DNA from: Candidatus Levybacteria bacterium RIFCSPLOWO2_01_FULL_38_21
Lineage (GTDB): Bacteria > Patescibacteriota > Microgenomatia > Levybacterales > UBA12049
Length of the DNA stretch: 50,274 nucleotides
Assembly: GCA_001782475.1 (NCBI GenBank)
Contig: MFOT01000007.1
Span: 1-50,274, forward strand
Direction of reading: 5' to 3'
The position numbers and the translations under genes are program-made. Shown here in pieces: positions 3,013-28,778 of the stretch. Under the pieces are notes generated by a model. That model was not told the DNA's origin, searched no databases, and saw only the letters and a list, made by a program, of their open reading frames with translations. Positions within the stretch are counted from its first letter, which is position 1, and every line of letters starts with the position of its first letter.

Positions 3013-3060
3013 AGCATATATGATACCATTTAACTGAAGGTTAAGACAATCTAGAAAAAT

Positions 3061-4086: not shown

Positions 4087-4090
4087 AGTA

Positions 4091-4122
4091 ATTGCTATAT
4101 TGTTTCATTGTTAAATTGTTAG
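4091..4122. repeat. Degenerate 8-mer tandem array x4
   Basis: attgctat attgtttc attgttaa attgttag; reverse complement of the array at 42510. Confidence 0.7.
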
Positions 4123-4125
4123 CAA

Positions 4126-5217: not shown

Positions 5218-5228
5218 TGTTGTACATT
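5200..5228 (+). promoter_or_regulatory. Promoter/operator of TA operon, overlapping pgk stop
   Basis: TTGACA-N17-TACATT; two TTGTAC sites resembling YefM/Phd-type operators; ATG 6 nt after -10. Confidence 0.7.
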
Positions 5229-5234
5229 TTAAAT

Positions 5235-5489
5235 ATGACAGATTTAATTTCTATATCAGATGCGCGGGCAAATTTGCCAGATATTGTGGCAAAAGTAAAT
5301 AAGAATATGAACAGAGTCACAATTACCGTGAACGGAAAGCCTAAAGCAACCCTCATAAGCGCTGAGGAGCTTGAGTCTCTAGAAGAGACTGCCGAAATTT
5401 TAGCAACACCTGGAGCAAAAGAAAGTATTTTAGAAGGTCTTAAAGAGGCAAAAAAAGGACAAGGTATTCCGCTTTCAGGGCTTAAATAA
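5235..5489 (+). CDS. Phd/YefM family antitoxin
   Basis: ISISDARANLPDIV...TITVNGKPKATLISAEELESLEETAEIL. Confidence 0.9.
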   Translation: MTDLISISDARANLPDIVAKVNKNMNRVTITVNGKPKATLISAEELESLEETAEILATPGAKESILEGLKEAKKGQGIPLSGLK

Positions 5490-5794: not shown

Positions 5795-7462
5795 TTACCA
5801 ACTCGTCCGAATATGTTTCATTGCGTAATCTAAATCTCCTGCGACTTTTTTACGGGGGTTGAAGATATTTTGAGGGTCGAAGATTTTTTTGGTTTCTTCA
5901 AAAAGTTCCACTATTTTTTCTCCGTACATTTGTTTAAGATACGGAGTTCTTATAAGTCCGTCATTATGCTCTCCGGTTATTGAGCCGTGATATTTAGCGA
6001 TAATCTCATAAACCTGGTCTGAAATTTGGGGAATTGCAGTTCTGACACTTGGGTTATTTATATCAACGAGCGGAATAATATGAAAATTCCCGTCACCCAC
6101 GTGTCCTGCAACTGTAAAAATAAACTCCGGATGCTTTTTAAGAATATCTGTTACTTTTGGTACTACTTCTGCAATATATTCAGGCTTTATAACAAAATCG
6201 TCAATAAAAGGAGCCGTATGTTTGTCACGGATTTTTTTGCGAAGCAGGTTAAAACTTTCGCGTCTTACAAGCCAGTATCTTTTTTCCTGATTTTCCAAAG
6301 CAGTTTGTGTTTGGGGATGAAGAGGTTTGAGTTTCTCTCGGAGTGTAGCCACTTTCTTCTTAACAATTTCTAAATCATCACTTGTGAAATCAACTTGGAG
6401 TACTAGCTTAGGCAAACTTCTGCCAGTAAACAGATCAAAGAATGCCGGAAGAAACGCAATTCCTGCCTCAATTGATCCCAAAAACCCAAGTTGTTTGGCA
6501 AATTCCGGAAAATATCTTAGGGCAAGTTTTAGGGTGTTATCATCATAAGATTCAAAACTTTCTGGCTCAAGCGGCAAAACCTCCTTGATAATTTCTCCAA
6601 GATGGGATATGTCATGAAGAAAAATAATTAACATATCGCGGTGCTGATGAATGGGTACGAGTTCCAGATCACCTTCGAGAAAGATTCCAAGAGTTCCTTG
6701 AGCGCCAACAAAAAGTTTTGTTAGGTCAAAAACCTGCCTGCCGGCAGGCAGGTTTTTTTCCCAAACATTCCAGAGAAAATATCCTGCGGAATTTTTGCTA
6801 ACTTTAGGCTTTGCCTTCTGTAGTAAATCGTAGTTATGGGTTATGAGTTCGTAGATTTTGCGGTAAATTTCCCCTTCGAAATCGATCTGCGCCATTTTTT
6901 GTTTAAGTTCTTTCTCTGAAAGCGGTTTTAATTCATATATATTTCCGTCTGAAAGAACTACTTTCATTCGTCTTACATAGTTTTCGGTTTTACCATATTG
7001 AAGAGATTTCTCTCCCCCCGTATTATTATTAAATATTCCTCCCATTGCGCAGAGCTCTCGAGATGCAGGGTAGGAGGGGAAAATTAAATTAGTTTTAAGA
7101 GTTTCTTTTTCAAAATCACGATAAAAAACACCCGGTTGGGTTGTAGCGATATTCCCGTTTACAACCGGCGTGTGATTAAAATATTTTCCAAATGCAACGA
7201 TAATAGACTCATTGATTGAGCCACCTCCCATGTCGGTTCCCGCCGCGCGGGCAGTAAGGGATAGGGTAGGTTTGTTCTTTTTATTATCATTAACAAATTT
7301 GACCAGCGCTTTTACATCTTCATCATCTTTTGGAAAGACAACAACTTGCGGTTTTACTTCAAAAAGAGAGGCATCATGGCTGTAGTCGGAAAGAGTCTTG
7401 TCGTCGTATAAAATATCGCCCTTTATCAAATGTCTGAGTTCTTCGATTAGTTTATCATCCAT
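5795..7462 (-). CDS. FAD-binding oxidoreductase (GlcD/D-lactate dehydrogenase-like)
   Basis: YSHDASLF, AAGTDMGG, GAQGTLG, GHVGDGNFH, GEHNDG, FDPQNIFNP. Confidence 0.9.
   Translation of the reverse strand: MDDKLIEELRHLIKGDILYDDKTLSDYSHDASLFEVKPQVVVFPKDDEDVKALVKFVNDNKKNKPTLSLTARAAGTDMGGGSINESIIVAFGKYFNHTPVVNGNIATTQPGVFYRDFEKETLKTNLIFPSYPASRELCAMGGIFNNNTGGEKSLQYGKTENYVRRMKVVLSDGNIYELKPLSEKELKQKMAQIDFEGEIYRKIYELITHNYDLLQKAKPKVSKNSAGYFLWNVWEKNLPAGRQVFDLTKLFVGAQGTLGIFLEGDLELVPIHQHRDMLIIFLHDISHLGEIIKEVLPLEPESFESYDDNTLKLALRYFPEFAKQLGFLGSIEAGIAFLPAFFDLFTGRSLPKLVLQVDFTSDDLEIVKKKVATLREKLKPLHPQTQTALENQEKRYWLVRRESFNLLRKKIRDKHTAPFIDDFVIKPEYIAEVVPKVTDILKKHPEFIFTVAGHVGDGNFHIIPLVDINNPSVRTAIPQISDQVYEIIAKYHGSITGEHNDGLIRTPYLKQMYGEKIVELFEETKKIFDPQNIFNPRKKVAGDLDYAMKHIRTSW
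6728..6757. repeat. Family B 30-bp perfect palindrome, in frame
   Basis: aaaaacctgcctgccggcaggcaggttttt, peptide KNLPAGRQVF. Confidence 0.9.
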
Positions 7463-7463
7463 T

Positions 7464-7530
7464 AGAATTAAGATTTAAGAAGTAAGAATTAAGAATATTC
7501 ATAAATCATAATTCGTAATTCCTAATTCAT
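7464..7530. repeat. Two inverted degenerate heptamer arrays filling the intergenic gap
   Basis: (agaatta)-like x5 followed by (attcata)-like x5. Confidence 0.8.
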
Positions 7531-8531
7531 TTTCGTGCTATTACTTTTCTCACAGCTTCTACTATTGCCGGAGCGTCCATCTTGTATTTTTCCATAAGCT
7601 CCTTGGGAGTTCCTGATTCTGCAAAAGTATTTTGAAGACCGATAAATTCCATGGGAGTTGGTTTATTTTTTGCCAAAACTTCTGCAATTGCACCTCCTAA
7701 GCCTCCCATGACCTGATGATCTTCAGCAGTCACGACTGCGCCGGTTTTTTCGGCAAGTTCAACAACGGTTTTTTCATCAAGCGGTTTTATGGTCGCAACA
7801 TTTGCGACTAACACTTCGATTCCCTCAGTGTCAAGCTCTTTGGCTGCCAAAAGCGCATTATAAAGAATATATCCTGTTGCAAAAATTACTGCCTGATATC
7901 CTGAGCCAGTCGAGGGATCAGATTCCCAGAAAGTTTGAATTTTTCCAACATCAAACGGAGTTTCGCTTGTTGTAATAACAGGAGTTTTGTCTCTCGTGAA
8001 TCTTAGATAAACTGGTCCATCAATTTCTGCCGCTTTTATAGTTGCTTTTTTTGCTTCAATAGCATCACAAGCCACAAAAATTGTAATTCCCGGCCAAGCT
8101 CTGACTGAAGCGATATCTTCTGTTGCTTGATGAGTCGCACCGTCTGGGCCTGTCACGATTCCCGAGTGATGGCCTGCGATTTTTACATTAGACTGGTTAT
8201 ATACAATAGTAGTTCTTATTGTCTCCCAGTTTTTTCCTGGAGAAAAAGTTGCGTAGGATGAAATGAACGGAATTTTCCCGCTTATTCCAAGACCCGCTGC
8301 AATTGCGGCCATATTTTGCTCGGCAACTCCGCATTCAAAAAAACGCTCTGGAAATTTTTTCTCAAATGCTTCTGTTTGCGTTGATTCAGAAAGATCAGCT
8401 GTTAACACAACCACATTCGGATTTTTTTCTCCCAATTCAACCAAACCCTCGCCATAGCCGGTTCTTGTTGCTTTCTGCTCAACGTTATTGTCAAAAATCT
8501 TCGGATTTAATTTTAAATTCGGATTTAACAT
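7527..8531 (-). CDS. Transketolase C-terminal subunit (start moved to ATG 8531)
   Basis: ADLSEST, GVAEQNM, GPDGATHQ, PVYLR, EDHQVMGGLG. Confidence 0.93.
   Translation of the reverse strand: MLNPNLKLNPKIFDNNVEQKATRTGYGEGLVELGEKNPNVVVLTADLSESTQTEAFEKKFPERFFECGVAEQNMAAIAAGLGISGKIPFISSYATFSPGKNWETIRTTIVYNQSNVKIAGHHSGIVTGPDGATHQATEDIASVRAWPGITIFVACDAIEAKKATIKAAEIDGPVYLRFTRDKTPVITTSETPFDVGKIQTFWESDPSTGSGYQAVIFATGYILYNALLAAKELDTEGIEVLVANVATIKPLDEKTVVELAEKTGAVVTAEDHQVMGGLGGAIAEVLAKNKPTPMEFIGLQNTFAESGTPKELMEKYKMDAPAIVEAVRKVIARK
7898..7918 (-). repeat. Family A palindromic element in transketolase C
   Basis: Minus strand atccctcgactggctcaggat, peptide DPSTGSG. Confidence 0.85.
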
Positions 8532-8542
8532 ACTTTTTTTCT

Positions 8543-8713
8543 GTACTTTTCTGCCGAGAAAAGTACCAAAAGCTCTCGCCAAGTGGTGCTCGTGCTTTCC
8601 AATTTCACCCGCTTGTCGGGTGATTTCACCCCTTCCTCAACCGCGTCTGACGCGGTGAGGAATCCCCCTGATCGCGCTCGTTCAATTGTCAGGCACTGCG
8701 CTCCAATTGGCGA
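8543..8713. other. GC-rich multi-hairpin intergenic element (MITE/REP-like or ncRNA)
   Basis: gtacttttct/agaaaagtac, tcgccaa/ttggcga, tcacccg/cgggtga, ttcctc-accgcgtc/gacgcggt-gaggaa. Confidence 0.6.
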
Positions 8714-8732
8714 TTCTTAAATTTCGATTTAT

Positions 8733-8767
8733 ATATTTTATCTTTTATATTTAATTTTTTTATTTAA
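8733..8767 (-). repeat. Degenerate AT-rich heptamer array after tkt N stop
   Basis: atatttt atctttt atattta atttttt; reverse complement resembles 44421 array. Confidence 0.45.
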
Positions 8768-8768
8768 G

Positions 8769-9632
8769 CTACTGGTGTTCGCTTCGGATTTTTCCTTGTA
8801 ATGTTCTTAGTTCTGCGAGTGCTTTTTTGGCCTGTTCTTTATTTGGCGGCATGCCGTGCCAGTGAAAATCTTTTTCCATAAAATCAACGCCCTTTCCGGG
8901 AATCGTATGAGCAATAATTACTGTTGGTTTTTCAAAAACTGCCCGAGCTTCTTTTACGGAATCTATAAAAGCTCTGATATTATTTCCATCAACCTCCAAA
9001 ACCTCCCAATTAAAAGCTTCATACTTTGCTTTTAACGACTCAAGCGGCATGACATCTTCTGTAAAACCGTCGATCTGAATATTATTTCTATCTATAATTT
9101 GAGTTAAGTTATTTAATTTGTTTTTCCCTGCAAACATCGCCGCTTCCCAAGTATTTCCTTCGTCGTGTTCTCCGTCTGATGTGATGCAATAAGTATGAAA
9201 TTTTTTCTTATCTAGTTTTGCCGCCAACGCAATTCCAATTGTCTGAGATAATCCTTCTCCTAAAGGCCCTGATGTTGTTTCAACTCCGGGGAGTGCGATT
9301 CTATGCGGATGTCCCTGGAGTCTTGAATTTAATTTTCGAAGGGTTTTTAGCTCTTCAACAGGAAAATAGCCGGAAAGTGCCATACTGACATATTGGACCG
9401 GACAAATATGTCCGTTTGATAAAATCAATCTGTCTCTATCCTCCCAATTAGGATTTTTTGGATCGTGGTTTAGGATATGAAAATAAAAGGCGGTAAAAAT
9501 ATCTGCCATTCCCAATGGTCCTGCAGAGTGTCCTGAACCTGCCTCAAGAAGTGTCTCAATAATTAACTCTCGAGTTTTAACAGCAATTTCTTCAAGTTTT
9601 ATTAATTTTTCTTCGTGAAGTTCTTCTGTCAT
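8769..9632 (-). CDS. Transketolase N-terminal subunit
   Basis: GSGH, DRLILSNGH, LQGHP, SGPLGEG, SDGEHDEG (ThDP motif), GKG...WHG. Confidence 0.95.
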   Translation of the reverse strand: MTEELHEEKLIKLEEIAVKTRELIIETLLEAGSGHSAGPLGMADIFTAFYFHILNHDPKNPNWEDRDRLILSNGHICPVQYVSMALSGYFPVEELKTLRKLNSRLQGHPHRIALPGVETTSGPLGEGLSQTIGIALAAKLDKKKFHTYCITSDGEHDEGNTWEAAMFAGKNKLNNLTQIIDRNNIQIDGFTEDVMPLESLKAKYEAFNWEVLEVDGNNIRAFIDSVKEARAVFEKPTVIIAHTIPGKGVDFMEKDFHWHGMPPNKEQAKKALAELRTLQGKIRSEHQ

Positions 9633-9678
9633 CTTATTCTATATTACAATCCTTATAAATCTTTTTGCAAGAAAATTA

Positions 9679-10947
9679 CTACCCCTTAAAGACAATCATC
9701 AAGTCCGAAACATTTGAGGGGAGTTTTTCTGTATCAATTCCATCACCGACTTTTTCAAAAAACTCCAAACTATTATTCGAGTTTAAAAATTCCGCAGGTT
9801 CTAGATTCATCCCCCTTGCTTTGTTGATGGTATTTATATCGCCAATCGCGCCGGCAAAACGGGAATTATCCCAGCCATCTGAGTCAAAAGAACATATAAT
9901 CGTTTTTCCATCAATAAAAGATAGTGCGCCCAAAACAACCTCCTGATTTCGTCCGCCTTCTCCTTTTCCTTTGACTTTTACAGTCGTTTCCCCGCCTGCC
10001 AAGAGTATTGTCCCTTTTTCTGCATTTTTAATAAGTATTTCCCCTGCCTTTCTTGCTTCGATCTGAAATTTATTAGAAAAAATATTTGTTTTAAATCCTA
10101 GATCTTGGGCTTTTTCCCTCATTGCCTCAAGAGCAGTCTGATTATTTAAAATAAGAATATTAAACACATTCTCGAAATATTTATCTTCCCTTGGGGTTTC
10201 TGTAAAGTCATTCCTTGTAATACCCCTCAAGCGGTATTTATCAACAATATTAAGTGCATTCTCAACAGTTGTCTCATCTCTTACGGTAGGACCCGAAGAG
10301 ATAACAGAAAGATCATTCCCGGGAACATCAGATGAGATTATGCTTATAACTCTTGCAGGATATAAATATTTCAAAAGCCCCCCGCCCTTTAAGAGAGATA
10401 AATGTTTTCTTACACTATTCATTTCGAAAATGTCAGCGCCCGATTTAAGAAGTTGCTCTTCTATTGCAATCAGTTTATCAAGGGTAGCTCTATATGGATT
10501 TTCAAAAAGCGCAGAGCCTCCTCCTGTTATGACAACAATAAATAAGTCTTTTTCCGAAAGATCTCTCAGCTCGTCTTTTAATAGAAATTTTGTAAAAATT
10601 AGGTTTTGTTCAGAAGGCAGGGGGTGTGTCCCTTTTGTAAATTTTACTTTTTTAAAATCTTCCGGATTTGTATCAATTACATAACCCTCTGTTAACTTTT
10701 CTCCCAGTTTTTCTTCGATAAATTTCGAATTTCTCGCAGAGCCTTTACCGAATCCGATTAAAAAAATGCGCTCAAATCCGGAAAGATCAAAAGTTTTATC
10801 TTTTATATTCAAAGTATTGTCTGAGACAGCTATGCTTTTACCGATAACATTTTCAGATTGAATAGAAGATAGCGCAGTTTCTATAAGTTCTAAAGCAATT
10901 TTTCGCTGAGGGCTTGTTGCAAGTTTATCGAAATTTTTAATAAACAT
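9679..10947 (-). CDS. Glycerate 2-kinase, MOFRL/DUF4147 type
   Basis: GFGKG, GTHPLP, TGGGSAL, VRKHLS..KGGGL, SDVPG, GGETTV, GGRNQE, NVSD. Confidence 0.9.
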   Translation of the reverse strand: MFIKNFDKLATSPQRKIALELIETALSSIQSENVIGKSIAVSDNTLNIKDKTFDLSGFERIFLIGFGKGSARNSKFIEEKLGEKLTEGYVIDTNPEDFKKVKFTKGTHPLPSEQNLIFTKFLLKDELRDLSEKDLFIVVITGGGSALFENPYRATLDKLIAIEEQLLKSGADIFEMNSVRKHLSLLKGGGLLKYLYPARVISIISSDVPGNDLSVISSGPTVRDETTVENALNIVDKYRLRGITRNDFTETPREDKYFENVFNILILNNQTALEAMREKAQDLGFKTNIFSNKFQIEARKAGEILIKNAEKGTILLAGGETTVKVKGKGEGGRNQEVVLGALSFIDGKTIICSFDSDGWDNSRFAGAIGDINTINKARGMNLEPAEFLNSNNSLEFFEKVGDGIDTEKLPSNVSDLMIVFKG

Positions 10948-11024
10948 AATAAGTTATAATTTTATTATGGTTCTAGGATAAGTTTAGTCTATTTACCAAG
11001 TTTTGACAAATATTTGTTTGCCTC

Positions 11025-11053
11025 TTGCTGCAACTTTTTTTCTCATCTATACT
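11025..11053 (+). promoter_or_regulatory. Promoter in front of gap 5' remnant
   Basis: TTGCTG-N17-TATACT-N6-ATG(11060). Confidence 0.55.
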
Positions 11054-11059
11054 AATTTT

Positions 11060-11113
11060 ATGACAAGAGTTGCGATAAACGGATACGGGAGAATAGGACG
11101 AGGGAACGGGTGA
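11060..11113 (+). pseudogene. Displaced gap 5'-end remnant (MTRVAINGYGRIGRGNG*)
   Basis: First 14 codons are 35/42 nt and 12/14 aa identical to the intact gap start at 12559. Confidence 0.9.
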
Positions 11114-11455
11114 ACGGGGACTGAACGTGAACGGGGACGGTCCTACGACAGATTGATAGAGCAATCCAAATTAGGCATGTTTTTTTAGTTTTTTTTGTTG
11201 AGAAGATCTTTCGGCAACGAGGCTATCTCTCCAAGCAAAAAGAAAACTACATTAAAATTAGCTTGTCACAATAAGATTTCTCAGGACCGTCCCCAAGGTA
11301 CCCAAGGTACCAAGGTACACAAGGTACAAAGTATTACGCTTGCTCGTAATAGCATAGTTTAAGAACAGTAGATCTCTAACACAGTAACACAGGGTCGGAC
11401 CCTCAGTTACCCTCAGTTAGGATCAAAAGAGTTACGACGAGGTCGGACCTCGTAA
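11104..11455. repeat. Cluster of REP-like repeats
   Basis: Stuttered tgaacggggac; 12-bp inverted pair ggggacggtcct (11133-11144)/aggaccgtcccc (11283-11294); caaggtac x4; palindromes agggtcggaccct and acgaggtcggacctcgt. Confidence 0.75.
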
Positions 11456-11507
11456 TAGAAACTGAGTTGAGTGATTCCTAGGGTGTGGAGCAGAAGGATT
11501 GGGAGAT

Positions 11508-12422
11508 TTATTTAACAAGTGTTTGTAGGCTTTTGTCTAGAAGTCCTAAGGTATTAATGCATTCTTGAACTTCCTCGGGAGTGGTTATTCTGACCCACGA
11601 CGGTTTATAGCGTCTTGTTATATCAAAGCTATTAAATAACAATTCGCCTTCACTTCCAGCTGAATTGCTTCTCAAAACTTCGCACGACGAAGTCCAATCA
11701 CCATTCCAAAAACGCTGTACACCATCCAAGCGAAGCCAAAATTTTCTTCCTTCTTGTTCTACTTCAACCCAATCGGTTGTTGCTATAACTATCCTTGCAT
11801 CACGATCCTCGAATCTAGATTGGGCAACCCTAACCTCTTTGGTTTTTTGACCTACCCTACGAAGAGCCTCAAAAAAAACAGCCCCCCTTTTTTCATATTG
11901 CAAATCTTGGTTTTTTCTAACCTCCTCTACTAAACCCTTTAAGACCTCTGGGATCTCCACAATTGGGTGAGAACTTGTCCCTTCGGCCTGCCCTAATCTA
12001 TCTCTTATAAAAAGAGCTACTCCTATTGCTTGGTTCAAACCTTCTATGGTATCAATCGACTCCCTCTCTATTCCTGTAATTTTTCCTTGGGGATTTTCAT
12101 TTAACACGATGATATGAATTGGAGGATCATAACCAAAAGGTATATAGTCTGGGACTTCTTTTATCTCAGAATAACTATCAGAAACTAGCTCTATTAGGAG
12201 CGTGCGATTAAAACTATCTGGACTTCTTTGAATTTGTTCAAAACTAAGTCCAAAAACTTCATCCCCATCAGTAAAATAGATTGTAGGGGTATATTTTCTT
12301 GATAAATTAGAATGAATAACTTCACTTAAATCAGCAAGAGAAGCAAGTATGTTGGATAGCCCTTTTTTCTTTGCTTGGAATTCTACTTCTTGGAGCAAGG
12401 ATCCTTTCTTCTCGGGAGCCAT
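11508..12422 (-). CDS. Hypothetical protein (orphan cargo)
   Basis: 304-aa ORF with TTGACA-N16-TATAAT-N6-ATG; no recognised motif. Confidence 0.75.
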   Translation of the reverse strand: MAPEKKGSLLQEVEFQAKKKGLSNILASLADLSEVIHSNLSRKYTPTIYFTDGDEVFGLSFEQIQRSPDSFNRTLLIELVSDSYSEIKEVPDYIPFGYDPPIHIIVLNENPQGKITGIERESIDTIEGLNQAIGVALFIRDRLGQAEGTSSHPIVEIPEVLKGLVEEVRKNQDLQYEKRGAVFFEALRRVGQKTKEVRVAQSRFEDRDARIVIATTDWVEVEQEGRKFWLRLDGVQRFWNGDWTSSCEVLRSNSAGSEGELLFNSFDITRRYKPSWVRITTPEEVQECINTLGLLDKSLQTLVK

Positions 12423-12558
12423 GATGAAATTATAAAATAATTTTTTTGATTGTCAAGTATTTTTGTGCTGGTCTCCTAGATAGTCGTAATCAAGTCTTTA
12501 AGACAATATTCCAAACAAACTTATTGAATTGTTAAGTAAAAACTTGTATTCTTTAAAT

Positions 12559-13653
12559 ATGGTTAGAATTGCAATAAACGGATACGGAAGAATAGGAAGA
12601 GTGGCACATAGGGTAATTTTGGAAAAGCACTCACAAGAAATTGATGTTGTCGCAATAAACGCAGGTTCCTCAACAGATATTAGAGGATGGATGTACCTCT
12701 TAAAGTACGATACTGCGTATCATACTTTAAATTCAAAATTCAAAATTCAAAATTCAAAATTAAACGAGGAGGAGAAAGTAGGAATATTAAAAGATGGGAT
12801 AGGCTACCTCATCATAAATGATAAAAAGATTCCTGTTTTTTCGCAGAAAGATCCGAGTCTTTTACCATGGAGAGATTTAAATATAGATGTAGTAATTGAG
12901 TCAACAGGACATTTTACCAAAGAGGAAAAATTAAAACTTCATCTTGATGCCGGCGCAAAGTTTGTTGTTTTATCTGCACCCATTAGAAAAGGAGACCCTT
13001 CGGCAAGCTCAGGGCAAGGGGTTCCGACATATATTTTATCTGTCAACGCAAAAGATTACAAAGGAGAAAAATTAATTAATAACGCATCCTGTACCACAAA
13101 CTGTATTACGCCGGTTGCAAAAGTAATTGTAGATAATTTTGGAGTAGAAAAGGCAATGATGACAACAATACACGGATATACATCAGATCAGCGACTTCAG
13201 GACGGAGGACACAAGGACTTAAGAAGAGCAAGGGCAGCAGCGGAAAATATAATTCCAACATCAACAGGTGCAACAATTGCAGCTTCGCAGGCATTGCCGG
13301 AACTAGCAGGTATCTTTGCCGGACTTGCAATAAGAGTACCGGTTGCAGTTGGGTCTCTTTCGGATTTTACATTTCTTCTTAAGAGAGAAACTACCAAAGA
13401 GGAAGTAAATGAGATATTCAAAAGAGAAGCGCAGAAAGAGGAATATCAAGGAATACTTGAGGTAACAGAAGATCCAATTGTGTCAAGTGATATAATAGGC
13501 AATCCCCATTCTGCAATTGTTGATCTCTCGCTTACTCAGGTTGTTTTAGGAAATATGCTTAAAGTTATTGCCTGGTATGACAATGAATACGGATATTGCA
13601 ACAGGTTAGTTGAAGAAGTTTTAATGGTAGGGAATAAAATTCCTAATTTCTAA
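12559..13653 (+). CDS. gap: Type I glyceraldehyde-3-phosphate dehydrogenase (start moved to ATG 12559)
   Basis: INGYGRIGR, NASCTTNC, IPTSTGA, WYDNEYGY; promoter TTGAAT-N17-TATTCT. Confidence 0.97.
   Translation: MVRIAINGYGRIGRVAHRVILEKHSQEIDVVAINAGSSTDIRGWMYLLKYDTAYHTLNSKFKIQNSKLNEEEKVGILKDGIGYLIINDKKIPVFSQKDPSLLPWRDLNIDVVIESTGHFTKEEKLKLHLDAGAKFVVLSAPIRKGDPSASSGQGVPTYILSVNAKDYKGEKLINNASCTTNCITPVAKVIVDNFGVEKAMMTTIHGYTSDQRLQDGGHKDLRRARAAAENIIPTSTGATIAASQALPELAGIFAGLAIRVPVAVGSLSDFTFLLKRETTKEEVNEIFKREAQKEEYQGILEVTEDPIVSSDIIGNPHSAIVDLSLTQVVLGNMLKVIAWYDNEYGYCNRLVEEVLMVGNKIPNF
12729..12763 (+). repeat. In-frame heptamer array (AAATTCA)x4+1 in gap
   Basis: Encodes NSKFKIQNSKL. Confidence 0.9.
12995..13018 (+). 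repeat. Family A palindromic element in gap
   Basis: acccttcggcaagctcagggcaag, peptide DPSASSGQ. Confidence 0.9.
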
Positions 13654-13703
13654 TTTTTAATTTCTAAACAAATCCCAATAATTAAATTTCAAACGCTCAA
13701 AAC
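13638..13703 (+). repeat. Heptamer array overlapping gap stop codon
   Basis: aattcct aatttct aattttt aatttct then degenerate units; contains the TAA at 13651. Confidence 0.75.
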
Positions 13704-13728
13704 ATTTTAATTTGATTTTTTATACTCT

Positions 13729-14313
13729 ATGAAAAAACCGATTGAACTTTCAGGTATCAATAATATCACAATTTCAGGAAGAATAGGAAGCGGTGCAACA
13801 ACTTTGGCAATAAAGCTTTCCCAATCTTTAGGATGGAAAATGGTTGAGGGCGGAGCGATAATGAGAAAAATAAATAACCAAGCCGGAGCAAATATAATCG
13901 AGACCAATAAAAGACCAGATCATTTTGATTTGGAATACGAAGAGATGGTTAAAAAAATTCTAAGGGAGAAAAAAAATCAAATAATTCAAAGCCATCTTGC
14001 GGGATTTGATGCACGGGGGATAGAGGGTGTTTTTAAAATTTTAGTAGTTTGCGAAGATGAGGAAGAAAATGATAAGAAGGATATTAGGATAGATAGACTA
14101 ATCAACAGAGACAAGATTACTGTTGCTCAGGCAAAGTATGAAGTAACCGAAAGGGAAAAAAGAAATCTTGAGAAATGGAGAAGGCTTTATGCAGATAATG
14201 ATGAGACCTGGGTTTATTGGGAGAAAAAATATTATGATTTAGTGATCAACACTTATTCTCACAATCAAGAAGAAACCCTCAAAATCGCCCTCAAAGCGAT
14301 TGGGCTTTCTTAG
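13729..14313 (+). CDS. Cytidylate kinase-like P-loop kinase
   Basis: ITISGRIGSGATTLA; YDLVINT. Confidence 0.8.
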   Translation: MKKPIELSGINNITISGRIGSGATTLAIKLSQSLGWKMVEGGAIMRKINNQAGANIIETNKRPDHFDLEYEEMVKKILREKKNQIIQSHLAGFDARGIEGVFKILVVCEDEEENDKKDIRIDRLINRDKITVAQAKYEVTEREKRNLEKWRRLYADNDETWVYWEKKYYDLVINTYSHNQEETLKIALKAIGLS

Positions 14314-15275
14314 TCTTTTCTTCCTCTCAAATAATATCCTATTATCTCGTCTCGAAGTTCAAGACTCCTTGCTGCTATGAAAAGGGGAACTGTTCCATCG
14401 TTGTATCGTTCTGGATCTATAATAAATTCCGGATCAAATTTGTATTCTTGGGCTTCTCCGTTTTCCAGATCTACGCTTGATGTCACACATCCTGCTGCGA
14501 GAGCAAGAGGAAGCCCCGGTAAAATTTCAGAATGAGGCTCATCAAACATTACGTAAGCATCTACTGCTCCTGTTGCCAAGTATGCATATACAAAAGCTCC
14601 ACCGTTCCCATAATGTCTGCTTTTTTCTGACCAATCATCTTCCATCAAACCAAAAGCAGAGTAATACTTCCGAGAATACTCTCTTTCGCCGACATAAGAA
14701 GCAATTACGATCCCATCCTTATCTTTTACAGAATTCTTTTTTGGTCGTACTACTTCGAGTTCCTGATGACGCATCTCTATTGTCGATAGATCTATGACGC
14801 GATTTACTTTTCTGATCGATACAAACGCTTTTTGTCCTTTTATGTCAACGACGACTGCACCAATTGGCGAACCGTCCGGATTATATGCTCCTAAAACTGA
14901 GTAAGGAGGGGTGTCCAACCCTCTCGCAAACTCTCCGGAATTGTCAAAAGGGTCTATTGTGAATACTACTTTAGGATTGCCGTCAGAATAGTCATGATAA
15001 TTGTGTTCTCCGAAAACAAATGCGGGGAGATGGACATCTCTTATGAGATTTGCCAATATAGGTTCTCCCATTGCGTCAATTTGAAGCTGTTCGTCATGTT
15101 CTCTTCCTGGTACCGATCCTAATGAAGATCTTCCTTGACCGGCTTCCACCATTGGATGTAGGGCTTGATTGGCCACCGAAGCATAATTTAAGAAAATATT
15201 GCGAGTTAGATTCCTAACCTCTCTTGGCGATAATTGTTCTCCTGGTGATCTTTCTAACTCATTGCCACTTACCAT
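14310..15275 (-). CDS. Inositol monophosphatase/FBPase superfamily protein
   Basis: GE...IDPFDNS metal motif, YLATGAVDAYV. Confidence 0.75.
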   Translation of the reverse strand: MVSGNELERSPGEQLSPREVRNLTRNIFLNYASVANQALHPMVEAGQGRSSLGSVPGREHDEQLQIDAMGEPILANLIRDVHLPAFVFGEHNYHDYSDGNPKVVFTIDPFDNSGEFARGLDTPPYSVLGAYNPDGSPIGAVVVDIKGQKAFVSIRKVNRVIDLSTIEMRHQELEVVRPKKNSVKDKDGIVIASYVGEREYSRKYYSAFGLMEDDWSEKSRHYGNGGAFVYAYLATGAVDAYVMFDEPHSEILPGLPLALAAGCVTSSVDLENGEAQEYKFDPEFIIDPERYNDGTVPLFIAARSLELRDEIIGYYLRGRKD

Positions 15276-15364
15276 ATACAAAAATTGGGAGTTTGTCCCA
15301 GAGTTTTAGGCTTATATCATACCTATTGATATTTGTCAAGTTAAATGGTAAAGTAAATGCGATT

Positions 15365-15958
15365 ATGCAAAGCAAAAAACAAGGCTATTTAGATTTCTTT
15401 AAAACCGTAGGAAAATCTAAGAGACTGCTCCGAACAGGATGGGTTAGAGAAAAAGTAAAAAATCCAGAGAGTATCGCGGAGCACTCATTTAGGGTAGGAG
15501 TTTTAGCAATGGTGCTAGCAGACAGACTCGGAGTCAATAAAGAAAAACTAATAAAAATGTCTTTAATTCATGATCTCGGAGAAACATTTACCGGAGATAT
15601 TGTTTGGACAAGAGGAGAATTAGTTGATATCAAAATAAGAGAAAATAAAGAGAAAGAAGAATTGAAAGGATTGGTTCGTTTATTCAGCGATATCGAAGAC
15701 GGAGAGGAATTTGTAGATATATTTGAAGAAATGATACAGTCTTCCACTAAAGATGCAAAGATCTTTTGGCAGATCGATAAGTTAGAAACAGTTCTACAAG
15801 CTTTTGAATATGAAGAAGAGCAGGGGATAATAATTGAGGAGTTTTTTCTAAATGCTGATTTATTTATCAAAGATAAAATTTTAAGAGAAATTTTTGAGGA
15901 GATATTAAAAGAAAGAGAGATTAGGCAAAGGAGTTTTTATAATCATGAAAGTAGCTGA
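15365..15958 (+). CDS. HD-domain hydrolase (5'-deoxynucleotidase-like; start moved to ATG 15365)
   Basis: KRLLRTGW, ESIAEHS, LIHDLGE..GDI, QIDKLE. Confidence 0.88.
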   Translation: MQSKKQGYLDFFKTVGKSKRLLRTGWVREKVKNPESIAEHSFRVGVLAMVLADRLGVNKEKLIKMSLIHDLGETFTGDIVWTRGELVDIKIRENKEKEELKGLVRLFSDIEDGEEFVDIFEEMIQSSTKDAKIFWQIDKLETVLQAFEYEEEQGIIIEEFFLNADLFIKDKILREIFEEILKEREIRQRSFYNHESS

Positions 15959-17210
15959 TGCAATGTCGCGTCATGTCGACCATATTTTGCCGGATACCAA
16001 AGTAAAAGATGTGTGCCTTCTTATTTTTGGAAGAGGCATAAACGGAGTTCCTGTGTGCAAAAACAAAAAAGTCATTGGCTTTATTACCGAAAGAGACATC
16101 CTAAGCCAGTTTTATCCATCTCTAGATGAATATGCACAAGACCCCTTTAGAGAAGGCGACTTTGAAGGGATGGAAAAAAAAGTTCACGATATTTTCGAAA
16201 TGACCTCAGATAAAATTATGAGCATAAATGTCACTAGAGTTACTCCCCAAACCCCGCTTTTAAGAGCCCAGTCTTTAATGTTTATAGAAAAAGTTGGAAG
16301 ACTTCCCGTTGTTGATAAAAATGGAAATCTTATTGGGATAATTTCAAAAGGAGATATCTTCAGAGCACTTGTAGGTGACAGGTTATTGTTTACAGAAAAT
16401 GAGGATTATAACGACTGGCTTTCTAAAACCTATTATCAAGCGGTTGATACAGAGGACAGACTTTCCCATGAGATTCCGGATCTTCTTAAGGTATTTACCC
16501 AGCATAAGGTAAAAACAATACTTGATATAGGATGCGGAACAGGAGATCATTCAATAGATTTAGCAAGAAGAGGCTTTAGTGTTGTTGGGATAGATCGAAG
16601 TCAGGGTATGATTAGAGAATCAAATAAGAGAAAACAGGTTCTTTCAAAAGAGGCATTGGGGAGGCTTAAATTTTATCGGGGAAGTTTTGAAGATATAGAA
16701 TCAAGGTTCACGGAATCTTTTGACGCGGCACTTATTTTAGGAAATACCTTGTCTCATAATCCCCATAAGTGTCAAGAGCTTATAAAACAAACAGTAAAGC
16801 ATCTTTCAGAGCATGGAGTATTAATTCTTCAAATAACTAATTTTGATAAAGTAATTAAAGTAAAAAATAGGCTTTTAAGTTTTAATTTTGCCAGACTTTT
16901 GGAAGAGCCGACTAAAGAATACGTATTTTTGGAATTCTATGACCTGCCGATAGAAAGACAAAGAACTATTCTTAAAACTTTTGCAATTCTTGTATCGGAT
17001 GGAGGGAAAATATGGAAAACAAGGGGTGTAAGAAACAGTCTCATGGCGTATAATAATAAAGAAAGTGTTGGAAAAGTTTTAAGGGGAAATGGATTTTCCA
17101 AGATATCTTTTTATGGCGGAGCATTTGACGGAAGACACTGGGATTTTCTATTTAGAAAACCATTCAGGGTTTTAGAAAGCGATTGGCTTAATGTAATTGC
17201 AGTAAGATAA
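15945..17210 (+). CDS. CBS-pair domain fused to class I SAM-dependent methyltransferase
   Basis: Two CBS repeats (GVPV..VIGFITERD; RLPVVD..LIGIISKGD) then ILDIGCGTG, VVGIDRS. Confidence 0.85.
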   Translation: MKVADAMSRHVDHILPDTKVKDVCLLIFGRGINGVPVCKNKKVIGFITERDILSQFYPSLDEYAQDPFREGDFEGMEKKVHDIFEMTSDKIMSINVTRVTPQTPLLRAQSLMFIEKVGRLPVVDKNGNLIGIISKGDIFRALVGDRLLFTENEDYNDWLSKTYYQAVDTEDRLSHEIPDLLKVFTQHKVKTILDIGCGTGDHSIDLARRGFSVVGIDRSQGMIRESNKRKQVLSKEALGRLKFYRGSFEDIESRFTESFDAALILGNTLSHNPHKCQELIKQTVKHLSEHGVLILQITNFDKVIKVKNRLLSFNFARLLEEPTKEYVFLEFYDLPIERQRTILKTFAILVSDGGKIWKTRGVRNSLMAYNNKESVGKVLRGNGFSKISFYGGAFDGRHWDFLFRKPFRVLESDWLNVIAVR

Positions 17211-17211
17211 A

Positions 17212-17778
17212 ATGAAAAAAACTCTTGCATTAATTATCATTTTTATTTTTTTCTCTTATGCCGTAACTTCTTTTGCGAAAGATTCCTCAAAAGAAGACAC
17301 TTCAGTTTCTACTCCCTCCTCTAGTAAAACTATCGATTATACCCTTCCATACCCAGGACTTTTGCCAGATAGCCCTCTTTATATTTTGAAAGTACTTAGG
17401 GATAGAATTGTAAGTATCTTAATCTCCGGTCCAGTAAAAAAAGCAAATTTTGATTTACTTCAGGCGGATAAGCGTTTAAACGAGGGAGTCTTTCTTTTCA
17501 ATAAAGGTGAAAAGAAATATTCGTTGGCAGAATCAACAATATCAAAAGGAGAAAATTATTTTGAAAAAGGAATCTCGGAAATAGAAATGGCAAAAAAACA
17601 AGGGTTTACTGTCAAAGACATTTTTCAAAGATTTCATTTAGCATCTTTAAAACATAAAGAAACAATAAAGGGTTTAATAGATAAAACCAGAGGAGATGTT
17701 AAACAAAGGCTTATTTTAGACGAGAGAAGGGTAGAAAATTTTGAAAAAAGAACAAATTCATTAATGTTGCAAAAATAG
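17212..17778 (+). CDS. Secreted DUF5667-like protein
   Basis: Signal peptide; YTLPYPGLLPDSPLY..K..RD, ADKRL. Confidence 0.75.
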   Translation: MKKTLALIIIFIFFSYAVTSFAKDSSKEDTSVSTPSSSKTIDYTLPYPGLLPDSPLYILKVLRDRIVSILISGPVKKANFDLLQADKRLNEGVFLFNKGEKKYSLAESTISKGENYFEKGISEIEMAKKQGFTVKDIFQRFHLASLKHKETIKGLIDKTRGDVKQRLILDERRVENFEKRTNSLMLQK

Positions 17779-17934
17779 CCTAAATCCTCATAAACGAACA
17801 GATTTTAATCCAAAGAATTTTTCAGACTCTAGGGATATTCTAATTTCTTTACTCTATTTTTTTGGTGTTTTAGCAAAATGTCTAAGATTGAAGCTAAAAA
17901 AAAGGATGATTGCTTTTGATACAAAAATTTCTAG

Positions 17935-17987
17935 TTGACACGCCAGATCTAGTGTAATACTATCCTTCTTGGCACTATAAGTAGTGT
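17935..17987 (+). promoter_or_regulatory. Promoter overlapped by two NrdR boxes
   Basis: TTGACA(17935)-N17-TACTAT; ACGCCAGATCTAGTGT (17940) and GCACTATAAGTAGTGT (17972), 32 bp apart, near consensus acaCwAtATaTwGtgt. Confidence 0.8.
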
Positions 17988-18049
17988 TGCGATCGTTGAT
18001 AATTTATTTAATTCGGCGATCCGTTTTAAGAAGCTTAAATTAAATTTTT

Positions 18050-18499
18050 ATGAAATGTCCTTATTGCGGATTATCCGAAATAGAAGTTGTAGAAACCAGA
18101 GATAGCGAAGATTTAGAAACTATTAGAAGAAGAAGAGAATGTCTAAAATGCGGGAAAAGGTTTACTACATACGAAAGAGTTGAAAACATAAATCTGGTGG
18201 TTATAAAAAAGGACAGTAGAAGAGAACAGTTTGACAGAGATAAGTTAAAAAGAGGAATAATAAGATCTTGTGAGAAAACAAAAGTCTCGATGGAGGATAT
18301 CGAAAGAATAGTAACGGAAGTTGAAAGAGAATTAAGAGGTGCGGATTCAGTTGAAGTTGATAGCAAAAAAATAGGGCAAATGGTTGCGGCAAGACTTAAA
18401 AAAATAGATAAGGTAGCATATATCAGATTTTCAAGTGTTTTTAAAAGATTCGTAGATGTTGAGGATTTTGAGAAGGAAGTAAAAAGACTAATAAAATGA
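18050..18499 (+). CDS. nrdR: Transcriptional repressor NrdR
   Basis: MKCPYC...RRRREC..C..RFTTYE, ATP-cone, VAYIRF.SV. Confidence 0.97.
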   Translation: MKCPYCGLSEIEVVETRDSEDLETIRRRRECLKCGKRFTTYERVENINLVVIKKDSRREQFDRDKLKRGIIRSCEKTKVSMEDIERIVTEVERELRGADSVEVDSKKIGQMVAARLKKIDKVAYIRFSSVFKRFVDVEDFEKEVKRLIK

Positions 18500-18912
18500 A
18501 ACAATTAAAAACAGAAATTATTGCACTCTGCGATTATGCAAATGTGTCACGAGAAGGCAAGTTAAGTATCAATGGAATTTTTGACGAACTTAGAGTTCAG
18601 CAATTTCCAGGCGGAATAGCTCGCGCATTTTTTATAGCAACTGTTAGTGGAACTCCATCCACCAGTTATAAATTGACTCTGAAAATTGAACCATCTAAGG
18701 GACTCGTAAATCAACCGAATGAGTTCACTTTAGGTGCCTTTACAGCGCCTAATGGGAAAAATAATCTAATTGTAGAACTTATTAATCTAGGATTTAAGGA
18801 AAAAGGCGATTACAGATTTATCCTGTATGAAGGAAAACAAGAAATTGGCTCAACTTTATTAAAAGTTATGCGTCAACAACAAGAGCATAACGATATAAAA
18901 TTACCAAATTAA
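18496..18912 (+). CDS. Hypothetical protein, DUF6941-like
   Basis: LCDYA...GKLSINGIFD...G.Y.F pattern; overlaps nrdR stop. Confidence 0.6.
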   Translation: MKQLKTEIIALCDYANVSREGKLSINGIFDELRVQQFPGGIARAFFIATVSGTPSTSYKLTLKIEPSKGLVNQPNEFTLGAFTAPNGKNNLIVELINLGFKEKGDYRFILYEGKQEIGSTLLKVMRQQQEHNDIKLPN

Positions 18913-18914
18913 TT

Positions 18915-26151: not shown

Positions 26152-26201
26152 TTCTTCCTTGCCCTCGGAGTTCTTCTTTGCTAAAATTAGCATGATTAGA
26201 A

Positions 26202-26274
26202 GGAGCTGTAGTTCACCGGTCAGAACGCGATCCTTATAAGATCGATGTAGATGGTTCGACTCCATCCAGCTCCA
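26202..26274 (+). tRNA. tRNA-Ile (anticodon UAU)
   Basis: Acceptor GGAGCTG/CAGCTCC-A; anticodon arm cgatc-ctTATaa-gatcg; T arm gatgg-ttcgact-ccatc; no encoded CCA. Confidence 0.88.
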
Positions 26275-26290
26275 CATGGGAAAAAATGGT

Positions 26291-28305: not shown

Positions 28306-28347
28306 TTTAATGGTTAACTCAAAATGATTTATAATAAACGTAGATCA

Positions 28348-28508: not shown

Positions 28509-28531
28509 TAAGAAAGTTAGGAGATAATATT

Positions 28532-28762: not shown

Positions 28763-28778
28763 TCTTCTTAAAGGATCT

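What the first reader, a model, noticed from the sequence alone, without database searches (positions are those of the whole stretch)
11025..12600. 1.5-kb island inside the gap start, with duplicated promoter and first 14 codons
Seen: promoter plus MTRVAINGYGRIGR, then repeat debris, a 304-aa orphan on minus, then a new promoter plus MVRIAINGYGRIGR and the full gene. Homology ends right after the conserved GRIGR codons. Inference: 5'-terminus version of the replacement mechanism; the island swapped gap's promoter and N-terminus.
Basis: partly seen in the sequence, partly recalled or inferred. Interest (0 to 1): 0.72.

Follow-up and report, generated by a model that had tools for sequence, protein, structure and literature searches.

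The report
Inserted island replaced gap gene's start
A 1.5-kb piece of DNA sits inside the first codons of an essential glycolysis gene in an uncultured bacterium and supplies that gene with a new promoter and new first 14 codons, leaving the old start behind as a relic; this is a neat but not unprecedented way for inserted DNA to avoid killing its host gene.

Summary
A stub of gap (ATG 11060, 14 codons, then GNG-stop) and the full gap gene (ATG 12559) share a 44-nt block at 84% identity, 1499 bp apart. The closest relative found, L001 (gap 82% aa), has one uninterrupted gap. Its promoter plus first 14 codons align to the window's stub region (82% over 85 nt, E 1.7e-17). The window's working gene aligns to L001 only from 1 nt before the ATG onward. 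So the stub is the ancestral start, and the island brought a non-homologous promoter plus replacement codons.

The two promoters are therefore not duplicates in sequence. The '304-aa orphan' belongs to a small uncharacterised family (18 cluster representatives). It models confidently (pLDDT 87.9) but matches no known fold. The island contains no integrase or transposase.

Best reading (confidence about 0.4): a decayed or non-autonomous integrative element whose attachment site carried a replacement gene end. The main rival (0.3) is one-sided illegitimate recombination with imported DNA. Neighbourhoods of family members could not be fetched, so the two remain unresolved. A tandem-paralog origin is not supported. 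This is a new variant of a known kind, of moderate interest.

The parts
9679..10947 (-). Glycerate-kinase-like gene (DUF4147 + MOFRL). It is the left flank, divergent from the ancestral gap start.
   Evidence: ORF. Pfam E 1.1e-59 and 2.1e-24. 68% aa identical to the L001 gene. Collinear with L001 769-2950.
11025..11059 (+). Ancestral gap promoter, now orphaned: TTGCTG (11025-11030), 17 nt, TATACT (11048-11053), 6 nt, ATG.
   Evidence: Hexamers read by eye. The region is homologous to the L001 gap promoter (11017-11101 vs L001 3606-3690, 82%, E 1.7e-17). The layout of a -10 box 6 nt before the ATG matches other genes in the window. It is not listed by the consensus scan.
11060..11113 (+). Relic of the gap start: 14 gap codons (to 11101), then GNG and a stop. 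It is a 17-codon mini-ORF.
   Evidence: 35 of 42 nt are identical to L001, and 35 of 42 to the new copy.
11059..11102 (+). Left copy of the 44-nt direct repeat (attL-like junction). The longest run identical to the right copy is 14 nt (ATAAACGGATACGG, 11075-11088).
   Evidence: family D1, 84% identity, spacing 1499. Identical runs were read from the two sequences printed there.
11103..11507 (.). Non-coding tail of the island, GC 0.44, dense in short repeats:
- GAACGKG x4 (11104-11135)
- 12-nt perfect inverted repeat (11133-11144 / 11283-11294)
- CCAAGGTA x4.6 (11293-11331)
- TAACACAG x2
- ACCCTCAGTT x2
- four GGWCSGWCC palindromes
- a hairpin followed by a T-run, downstream of the 304-aa ORF on the minus strand
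   Evidence: 4 of the 5 window matches to GGWCSGWCC fall here (0.29 expected in the whole window). 4 of the 7 window matches to GAACGKG fall here. No Rfam family: best hit is PreQ1 at E 1.8. No match in any of the 80 loci.
11508..12422 (-). 304-aa ORF, a member of a small uncharacterised protein family. The predicted layout is a long helix, a five-strand sheet and a helix, seen twice.
   Evidence: ORF. No hit in Pfam, PHROGs or NCBIfam; PADLOC gives only Cmr5 at E 0.025. 18 relatives, aligned as A2. Model pLDDT 87.9, pTM 0.79. Foldseek gives 0 hits at E<=1e-3 in PDB and BFVD.
12429..12456 (-). Promoter of the 304-aa ORF: TTGACA, 16 nt, TATAAT. The -10 box ends 6 nt before the ATG.
   Evidence: 12 of 12 consensus positions..
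12524..12558 (+). Island-borne substitute gap promoter: TTGAAT (12524-12529), 17 nt, TATTCT (12547-12552), 6 nt, ATG.
   Evidence: Read by eye. The -10 spacing appears. It is below the scan's threshold (8 of 12, not listed). It has no homology to the old promoter or to L001.
12558..12601 (+). Right copy of the 44-nt direct repeat (attR-like junction). It holds the replacement first 14 codons.
   Evidence: 33 of 42 nt are identical to L001.
12559..13653 (+). Working gap gene (type I GAPDH, 364 aa). It is orthologous to the L001 gene from 1 nt before the ATG onward.

Best explanation
**What is shown (confidence about 0.9).** Relative to its closest known relative, this genome carries a 1499-bp insertion inside the 5' end of gap, right after codon 14. 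The ancestral promoter and first 14 codons remain upstream as a dead stub. The insert ends with a different promoter and its own version of the same 14 codons, fused in frame to the rest of the ancestral gene. Gap is therefore now expressed from island DNA, back to back with the strong promoter of the island's single 304-aa gene.

**What is inferred (the confidence given below).** The insert entered as a small circular integrative element through one reciprocal crossover within the highly conserved stretch that encodes the NAD-binding INGYGRIGR motif. The element's attachment site carried a 'replacement sequence': a start codon, 14 codons and a promoter. This kept the essential target gene working, as integrative elements do at icd and at tRNA genes. 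The recombinase is no longer in the island. It was either lost by decay, which would make the repeat-dense 405-nt tail what is left, or it was always supplied in trans.

The 304-aa protein is treated as cargo of unknown function.
For: - Empty site in L001: both window copies map to L001 3648-3690. The window blocks 8776-10947, 11017-11101 and 12558-14297 are collinear with L001.
- The old promoter is homologous to L001's and the new one is not.
- The homology between the copies is a discrete 44-nt block. It starts 1 nt before the ATG and ends 1 nt after codon 14.
- Past the block the working gene returns at once to normal identity with L001. Codons 1-30 are 78% nt and codons 16-45 are 80% nt, against 76% for the whole gene. 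This fits a crossover inside the block rather than a long imported tract.
- The two copies differ at 7 of 42 nt, including all three bases of codon 2. Meanwhile the stub and its promoter are still 82% identical to L001. This points to the new copy coming from elsewhere rather than from in-place duplication.
- The block is one of the most conserved nucleotide stretches of gap. 64 loci average about 23 of 33 identical nt, including archaeal records.
- Four direct GAACGKG repeats abut the left junction, where arm-type binding sites would lie. That reading is my inference.
- A second island in the same window has the same design at a 3' end. A 22-nt perfect repeat of the DivIC gene's last codons brackets 0.5 kb that holds DUF6883 and DUF4926 ORFs.
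- Published rule: an attP usually carries a replacement sequence so that the target gene stays functional (passages of PMC10111431).
- Elements that keep attL/attR but have lost their integration genes are known as CIMEs (passage of PMC5704250).
Against: - No integrase, transposase or nuclease domain lies in the island. The only tyrosine recombinase in the window is 14.5 kb away and looks Xer-like.
- The repeat is only 84% identical and its longest identical run is 14 nt.
- Only one relative is close enough to give an empty site.
- The island gene has host-typical composition: GC 0.388 (z 0.5) and GC3 0.285 (z -0.5).
- Family members also lie on long contigs, up to 109 kb. 8 of the 35 proteins with contig data are on contigs over 6 kb.
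- No family member matches the phage or plasmid collections, and none lies within 6 kb of gap in the 80 loci. Nothing therefore shows that the family is mobile or tied to gap.
- No circular or excised form could be looked for.
Confidence: 0.4

Rival explanations
1. One-sided (homology-facilitated) illegitimate recombination. Linear DNA was taken up from a related organism in which the 304-aa gene already lay divergently upstream of gap. It was anchored by homologous recombination inside gap. Its other end joined illegitimately just after codon 14 of the resident gene, which duplicated the first 14 codons. No mobile element or special enzyme is needed.
For: - There is no recombinase in the island.
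- The composition is host-like, as expected for a closely related donor.
- The same lineage shows other gene-sized indels in spacers without any duplication. L001 has a 192-aa ORF where the window has none, and the window has a 323-aa gene that L001 lacks.
- The topology works for any crossover downstream of codon 14 (my reasoning).
- An 84%-identical copy of the protein exists in another sample, so related carriers exist.
Against: - No donor tract is visible. Identity to L001 just past the block is as high as elsewhere in the gene.
- The donor's promoter would have to be wholly unrelated while its coding start is about 83% identical.
- The junction falls exactly at the end of the most conserved stretch.
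- A second, perfect 22-nt gene-end repeat in the same window fits att-type sites better than two independent accidents.
Confidence: 0.3
2. In-place origin. A local duplication of the gap start was followed by insertion of the 304-aa gene between the copies and by divergence of the downstream copy's promoter.
For: The three-way distances are roughly equal: old-new 35/42, old-L001 35/42 and new-L001 33/42. On their own they do not exclude a common local ancestor.
Against: - The new promoter shares nothing with the old one, while the old one keeps 82% identity to L001.
- The constrained new copy would have changed more than the unconstrained stub. The 33-nt core gives 26/33 against 29/33 identity to L001.
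- Codon 2 differs at all three bases.
- This route needs at least two separate events.
Confidence: 0.1
3. Self-sufficient minimal element. The 304-aa protein itself directs the recombination, for example as a DNA-annealing or site-binding protein acting on the repeats in the tail. The 1.5-kb unit would then be a new kind of gene-end-targeting mobile cassette.
For: - It is the only gene in the island and has a perfect consensus promoter.
- Repeats and palindromes lie next to it.
- The fold is confident but unmatched.
- In the C-terminal-domain search, RAD52 chains fill 8 of the 46 rows listed, though only at E 0.39-1.1, probability at most 0.30 and TM at most 0.40.
Against: - There is no significant structural or sequence match to any recombinase, nuclease or annealing protein.
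- The near-invariant residues are mostly hydrophobic or structural (F, T, V, G, W, N).
- Family members lie on chromosomal-size contigs.
- None of the 80 gap loci carries a homolog.
Confidence: 0.06
4. Assembly artefact: two strain variants were joined wrongly in the metagenome assembly.
For: The source is evidently a metagenome assembly, and reads could not be inspected.
Against: - The left junction has no exact repeat long enough for a graph mis-join. The longest shared run is 14 nt.
- The identical protein is recorded on 6 contigs in public collections, the longest 51.7 kb.
- The stub is a clean in-frame relic with its own conserved promoter.
Confidence: 0.03

Closest known systems
Prophages and islands that integrate inside a gene and carry a replacement gene end in attP (e14 and lambdoid prophages at icd; many tRNA-gene integrators)
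   Same: A direct repeat of the target-gene end flanks the insert. The element-side copy keeps the gene intact and the host-side copy is left as a relic. The identity block extends from the crossover to the gene end. Source: passages of PMC10111431. The e14 detail is recalled, not read.
   Different: - This case is at the 5' end, so the element must also supply a promoter and a start codon.
- The insert is only 1.5 kb.
- No integrase is present.
- The repeat is imperfect (84%).
CIMEs (cis-mobilizable elements): decayed integrative elements that keep attL and attR but have lost their integration and transfer genes
   Same: [quoted passage not shown] It has no recombination genes and carries small cargo. 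Definition from a passage of PMC5704250.
   Different: CIMEs are defined in Firmicutes by kinship to known ICEs or IMEs at the same site. No parent element or matching integrase is known here.
Homology-facilitated illegitimate recombination during natural transformation
   Same: It explains an insert joined by homology on one side and without homology on the other, with no element-encoded enzyme. This is recalled knowledge; the literature search gave no usable source.
   Different: It usually deletes or replaces recipient DNA rather than leaving a tidy in-frame duplicate of a gene start. It does not predict a discrete 44-nt block.
SCCmec at the 3' end of rlmH (orfX)
   Same: Insertion is within the last codons of a conserved housekeeping gene. 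The element end recreates the reading frame, and short direct repeats lie at both ends. This is recalled, not read.
   Different: It is at the 3' end, uses dedicated serine recombinases (Ccr) and is tens of kb long.

Membership tests
Integrative genetic element with replacement sequence in attP | Insert flanked by direct repeats (attL/attR) that contain an identity block | tested here: met
   44-nt repeat, 84% identical, with identical runs of 14 and 9 nt
Integrative genetic element with replacement sequence in attP | Uninterrupted target site (attB) in a related genome | tested here: met
   L001 has a single gap start to which both window copies map. This rests on one relative only.
Integrative genetic element with replacement sequence in attP | Target gene remains intact through element-borne sequence | tested here: met
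   Full-length GAPDH from ATG 12559, scoring above the TIGR01534 cut-off
Integrative genetic element with replacement sequence in attP | Element encodes a tyrosine or serine recombinase next to an att site | tested here: not met
   The only ORF has no Pfam, NCBIfam or PHROGs match, and none of the 18 family members has one. Fold searches are negative.
Integrative genetic element with replacement sequence in attP | Excision to a circular form that regenerates attB | not testable with these tools
CIME (decayed, cis-mobilizable element) | att sites retained while integration and transfer genes are absent | tested here: met
CIME (decayed, cis-mobilizable element) | Derived from, or mobilised by, a related complete element that uses the same site | not tested
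   No complete element at gap was seen in the 80 loci. The wider search was not possible.
Insertion sequence / transposon | Terminal inverted repeats, a short target-site duplication and a transposase | tested here: not met
   No inverted repeat joins the island ends. The 44-nt imperfect repeat is unlike a target-site duplication. There is no transposase domain.
Free-standing homing endonuclease gene | LAGLIDADG, GIY-YIG, HNH or PD-(D/E)xK nuclease domain | tested here: not met
   No Pfam match and no structural match at E<=1e-3
Remnant of a tandem gap paralog | Second full-length gap upstream in relatives | tested here: not met
   At most one N-terminal motif in each of the 80 loci: one in 64 and none in 16. 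L001, L002, L003 and L012 were inspected.
Type I glyceraldehyde-3-phosphate dehydrogenase (the interrupted gene) | Equivalog model above its cut-off, with both domains present | tested here: met
   TIGR01534 at 371.5 bits against a cut-off of 367.2. Gp_dh_N E 2.6e-28 and Gp_dh_C E 1.8e-56.

The most novel reading that the evidence does not exclude
The 1.5-kb unit is a complete, minimal mobile cassette of a kind not yet described. It has one protein of a new fold and a tail of binding repeats. It also has an attachment site that imitates the start of an essential, universally conserved gene, complete with a promoter. It could therefore insert into the NAD-binding-motif codons of gap without harming the host. 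The DivIC island in the same window would be a 3'-end cousin. Together they would point to a family of gene-end-replacing cassettes in these reduced genomes.
Probability: 0.07. Interest if true: 0.85.

Novelty: new variant of a known kind. Interest (0 to 1): 0.45.

Why it matters
This is a clean natural case in which inserted DNA took over both the transcription and the translation start of an essential glycolytic gene, with the ancestral start preserved beside it as proof. Replacement of gene ends by integrating elements is established for 3' ends and for tRNA genes. A 5' case has to bring a promoter, and this one is in a very small insert with no recombinase.

It also puts gap expression under island-borne control, back to back with an unknown gene. 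It flags a confidently folding, unmatched protein family for study. If the pattern recurs, as the second gene-end repeat in this window hints, it would describe how strain-variable genes enter the tightly packed genomes of these uncultured bacteria.

Tried and rejected
**Structured RNA in the 405-nt tail.** Rfam at gathering thresholds found only two tRNAs elsewhere in the window. At E<=5 the region gave only PreQ1 at E 1.8. ARAGORN found nothing there. Folding z-scores were -2.5 and -2.6, which is modest for a sequence full of repeats.

**MITE bounded by the 12-nt inverted repeat.** There are no further copies in the window.

**Foreign composition.** The ORF's GC and GC3 are host-typical.

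**GGWCC avoidance as a marker of foreign origin.** The site is mildly under-represented in the window (29 found against 43 expected) and clustered in the tail. This was not informative.

**Function of the ORF.**
- Pfam, PHROGs, PADLOC and NCBIfam gave nothing.
- A family profile against PDB sequences had a best E of 0.35.
- Pfam on all 18 members gave nothing.
- The Atlas gave best scores of 0.80 and 0.78, all below the lead threshold.
- Foldseek on the whole model and on the C-terminal domain gave 0 hits at E<=1e-3. PUR-alpha, CENP-P and RAD52 rows are weak leads only.
- tblastn against phages and plasmids gave no match.
- A search for longer fused forms found none, which is weak evidence.
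- The alignment-seeded word search returned only 4 proteins.

**Kinship between the window's ORF and the L001 192-aa ORF.** None was found (E 0.37).

**Small-circle idea from contig lengths.** 15 of the 24 proteins with contig data lie on contigs of 1.15-1.6 kb. One search added contigs of 51.7, 109 and 16.8 kb, so I dropped the idea as evidence.

**A core shared by the gap repeat and the DivIC repeat.** Only an 8-nt coincidence was seen by eye, and I did not pursue it.

One search used a one-base-off start for gap and gave meaningless gap values. One search is the corrected run. The other three gene pairs stand.

**Literature.**
- Searches were full-text searches, of which I saw only the listings.
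- Passages were read in PMC10111431 and PMC5704250.
- Mageeney et al. 2020 is not held and is not used.
- (attB + gapA + integrase + integration site + prophage) listed 2 papers. Both concern Klebsiella elements and neither is about gap as a target, judging by title and abstract.
- One search listed 2 versions of one groundwater virome study.
- I found no report of gap as an integration site or of this protein family. These searches are not exhaustive.
Full report
**1. What is in the sequence.** The region reads as follows.

- A glycerate-kinase-like gene lies on the minus strand (9679-10947; DUF4147 + MOFRL).
- A 112-nt spacer follows.
- An ATG at 11060 opens MTRVAINGYGRIGR (to 11101). The frame then runs GNG and stops at 11111-11113.
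- 11103-11507 is non-coding.
- A 304-aa ORF runs on the minus strand from 12422 to 11508.
- After a 136-nt spacer, an ATG at 12559 opens MVRIAINGYGRIGR and continues as a complete type I GAPDH to 13653. It has Gp_dh_N and Gp_dh_C, and scores 371.5 bits against TIGR01534 (cut-off 367.2).

The two starts share a 44-nt direct repeat, 11059-11102 and 12558-12601, 84% identical and 1499 nt apart. The identical runs are 14 and 9 nt. Upstream of the ATGs the copies do not align. The block is supported by window self-blast (29-nt core, E 5.3e-4) and by tblastn of gap against the window (E 0.002). There is no other gap-like sequence in the window.

**2. Polarity and the empty site.** One scan of species-representative genomes with the gap protein returned 80 loci.

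The closest, L001, is syntenic: two transketolase halves, the glycerate-kinase-like gene, gap, then a cytidylate-kinase-like gene. Identities to the window are:

| Gene | aa identity | nt identity |
|---|---|---|
| gap | 82% | 76% |
| glycerate-kinase-like | 68% | 71% |
| kinase-like | 76% | 78% |
| transketolase N half | 90% | 82% |

blastn of window 7000-19000 against L001 gives collinear blocks:

| Window | L001 | Identity |
|---|---|---|
| 8776-10947 | 769-2950 | 76% |
| 11017-11101 | 3606-3690 | 82%, E 1.6e-18 |
| 12558-14297 | 3648-5344 | 75% |

So the stub and the working start both map to the same L001 segment, 3648-3690. The stub carries with it the 43 nt upstream that are L001's gap promoter. 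The window's 12423-12557 has no counterpart in L001 or in any of the other 79 loci.

The stub is therefore the ancestral promoter and start, and the 1499 bp are an insertion that brought a substitute.

The motif [IV][AG][IV]NG[FYL]GR[IM]GR occurs twice only in the window. 64 of the 80 loci have one match and 16 have none. No relative inspected has a second gap.

**3. Promoters.** Many first genes in this window have a -10-like hexamer 4-9 nt before the ATG and no Shine-Dalgarno-like motif. 15 of the 36 starts examined score at least 4 of 6, and 5 of 36 have an SD-like motif. This suggests leaderless transcripts; that is my inference.

- Old gap start: TTGCTG, 17 nt, TATACT, 6 nt, ATG. It is conserved with L001 (TTGATG, 17 nt, TATACT, 6 nt, ATG).
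- New gap start: TTGAAT, 17 nt, TATTCT, 6 nt, ATG.
- Neither passes the consensus scan's threshold, and one search lists neither.
- The 304-aa ORF has a perfect TTGACA, 16 nt, TATAAT, ending 6 nt before its ATG.

'Duplicated promoter' is thus true in function and layout at best, and not in sequence.

**4. What the island carries.**

*The 304-aa ORF.*
- It has no Pfam, PHROGs or NCBIfam match and only a non-significant PADLOC row.
- It is not a singleton. phmmer over 1.84 billion cluster representatives found 18 proteins at E<=1e-3. One is 84% identical, one is a 96%-identical fragment, and the rest are 25-42% identical. Ten of these are of similar length, 291-328 aa (alignment A2).
- With that alignment the model is confident (pLDDT 87.9, pTM 0.79). 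It shows a long helix, a five-strand sheet and a helix, twice over.
- A separate model of the C-terminal half has pLDDT 90.5.
- Foldseek found no match at E<=1e-3 in PDB or in viral models, with TM at most 0.2 for the whole protein.
- For the C-terminal domain, RAD52 chains occupy 8 of the 46 rows listed, but at E 0.39-1.1. This is a lead, not a result.
- No fused longer form, phage copy or plasmid copy was found.
- Its GC and GC3 are host-typical.
- The identical protein is recorded on 6 contigs, the longest 51.7 kb. Other members lie on contigs from under 1 kb to 109 kb.

*The 405-nt tail.*
- It has GC 0.44.
- It holds 4 of the window's 7 GAACGKG motifs, directly at the left junction.
- It holds 4 of the window's 5 GGWCSGWCC palindromes, against 0.29 expected.
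- It holds a 12-nt perfect inverted repeat and four short tandem arrays.
- It matches no RNA family.

**5. How it most likely happened.** Firmly shown: a 1.5-kb insertion after codon 14, with the host gene rescued by insert-borne codons and promoter. The route is inferred.

I favour a single reciprocal crossover between the chromosome and a small circular element whose attachment site imitated the gap start. Four observations point that way.

- The shared sequence is a discrete block that runs from the start codon to the junction.
- Identity to L001 is normal immediately past the block: 78-80% nt over codons 1-45, against 76% overall. No long imported tract is visible.
- The copies differ at 7 of 42 nt, including all of codon 2, while the stub region is still 82% identical to L001. 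The new copy therefore looks imported rather than copied in place.
- The same window holds a second island of the same design at a 3' end. The last 22 nt of a DivIC-family gene (28282-28303) recur perfectly at 28800-28821, and truncated DUF6883 and DUF4926 ORFs lie between them.

That attP sites carry a replacement sequence so that the target gene still works is stated in PMC10111431 (passages). Decayed elements that keep attL/attR without integration genes are defined as CIMEs in PMC5704250 (passage).

Against this reading:
- no recombinase is in the island;
- the repeat is imperfect;
- only one empty-site relative exists;
- nothing shows that the protein family is mobile.

The main rival is one-sided illegitimate recombination with DNA from a relative in which the 304-aa gene already lay upstream of gap. 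It needs no element. It also fits the other spacer indels between the window and L001: L001's 192-aa ORF at 3017-3595 and the window's 323-aa gene at 14310-15281, neither with a duplication.

My estimates:

| Reading | Probability |
|---|---|
| att-type element | about 0.4 |
| Illegitimate recombination | about 0.3 |
| In-place duplication plus insertion | about 0.1 |
| Self-sufficient new cassette | about 0.06 |
| Assembly artefact | about 0.03 |
| Unassigned | the rest |

**6. Consequences (inferred).**
- Gap is now transcribed from island DNA, divergently from the strong promoter of the 304-aa gene.
- The old promoter, if still active, makes a 17-codon peptide and reads antisense into that gene.
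- The old promoter's continued 82% identity to L001 means one of two things: either the insertion is recent relative to the split from L001, or the promoter is still under selection.

**7. Comparison with known systems.** The arrangement works like gene-end replacement by integrative elements (icd, tRNA genes). In its present state it resembles a CIME. It fails the membership test for a complete integrative element, because it has no recombinase. It also fails for an insertion sequence, a homing-endonuclease gene and a paralog remnant (see the membership table).

It differs from the textbook cases in four ways: it is at the 5' end, so it brings a promoter and a start codon; it is very small; its target is gap; and it occurs in an uncultured Patescibacteria-type genome (by the record titles of the nearest loci).

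My literature searches found no report of gap as an integration target or of this protein family (listings only). They were not exhaustive.

**8. Limits.**
- The neighbourhoods of the family members could not be fetched.
- Reads were not available, so neither junction could be verified and no excision products could be sought.
- bioRxiv supplements were closed, and no supplement was consulted.

Noticed in passing
window 27964-28821: This is a 3'-end counterpart of the finding. The last 22 nt of a DivIC-family gene (28282-28303...KWWDLFF-stop) recur perfectly at 28800-28821, 518 nt downstream. A truncated DUF6883 ORF (28324-28527) and a DUF4926 ORF (28532-28762) lie between the copies. A Gp49-like toxin (28883-29218) and an HTH gene (29243-29515) follow. 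No relative was available to show which copy is ancestral.
   Followed up: partly
window 12997-13019, 20406-20428, 20679-20701, 42437-42459, 30533-30555: A 23-nt GC-rich motif (CCTTCGGCAAGCTCAGGGCAAGG, up to 3 mismatches) occurs 5 times, against 0 expected. Four copies are in the same reading frame inside genes and encode PSASSGQ-like peptides: gap, ribonucleotide reductase twice, and a glycosyltransferase. The gap copy falls in an 8-codon insertion that L001's gap lacks. It looks like a short repeat that spreads in frame into essential genes.
   Followed up: partly
window 12729-12761 and 42047-42078: An identical 32-nt array of the heptamer AAATTCA lies in frame in gap and in the glycosyltransferase gene 41402-42631. 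In both it encodes NSKFKIQNSKL. In gap it sits in a segment that is hypervariable against L001: codons 46-90 are only 33% aa identical. Heptamer arrays are common across the window.
   Followed up: partly
window 14298-15268; L001 3017-3595: There are further gene-sized differences from the closest relative, without duplications. The window has a 323-aa inositol-monophosphatase-family gene (14310-15281, minus strand) where L001 has an 83-nt spacer. L001 has a 192-aa ORF with no Pfam match between the glycerate-kinase-like gene and the gap promoter, where the window has none. Spacers around gap are indel hot spots in this lineage.
   Followed up: partly
whole window, gene starts: 15 of the 36 gene starts examined have a -10-like hexamer ending 4-9 nt before the ATG. 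Only 5 of the 36 have a Shine-Dalgarno-like motif. This suggests widespread leaderless mRNAs in this organism.
   Followed up: partly
window 23773-27849 and 29938-30516: The neighbourhood looks mobile-element-like. It holds a TraG/VirD4/HerA-like ATPase (23773-26151) and a 286-aa Xer-like tyrosine recombinase (26989-27849, minus strand) next to the DivIC gene. It also holds tRNA-Ile(TAT), two facing tRNA-Met genes and a small GIY-YIG ORF (30271-30516). Whether the recombinase acts on either island is unknown.
   Followed up: no
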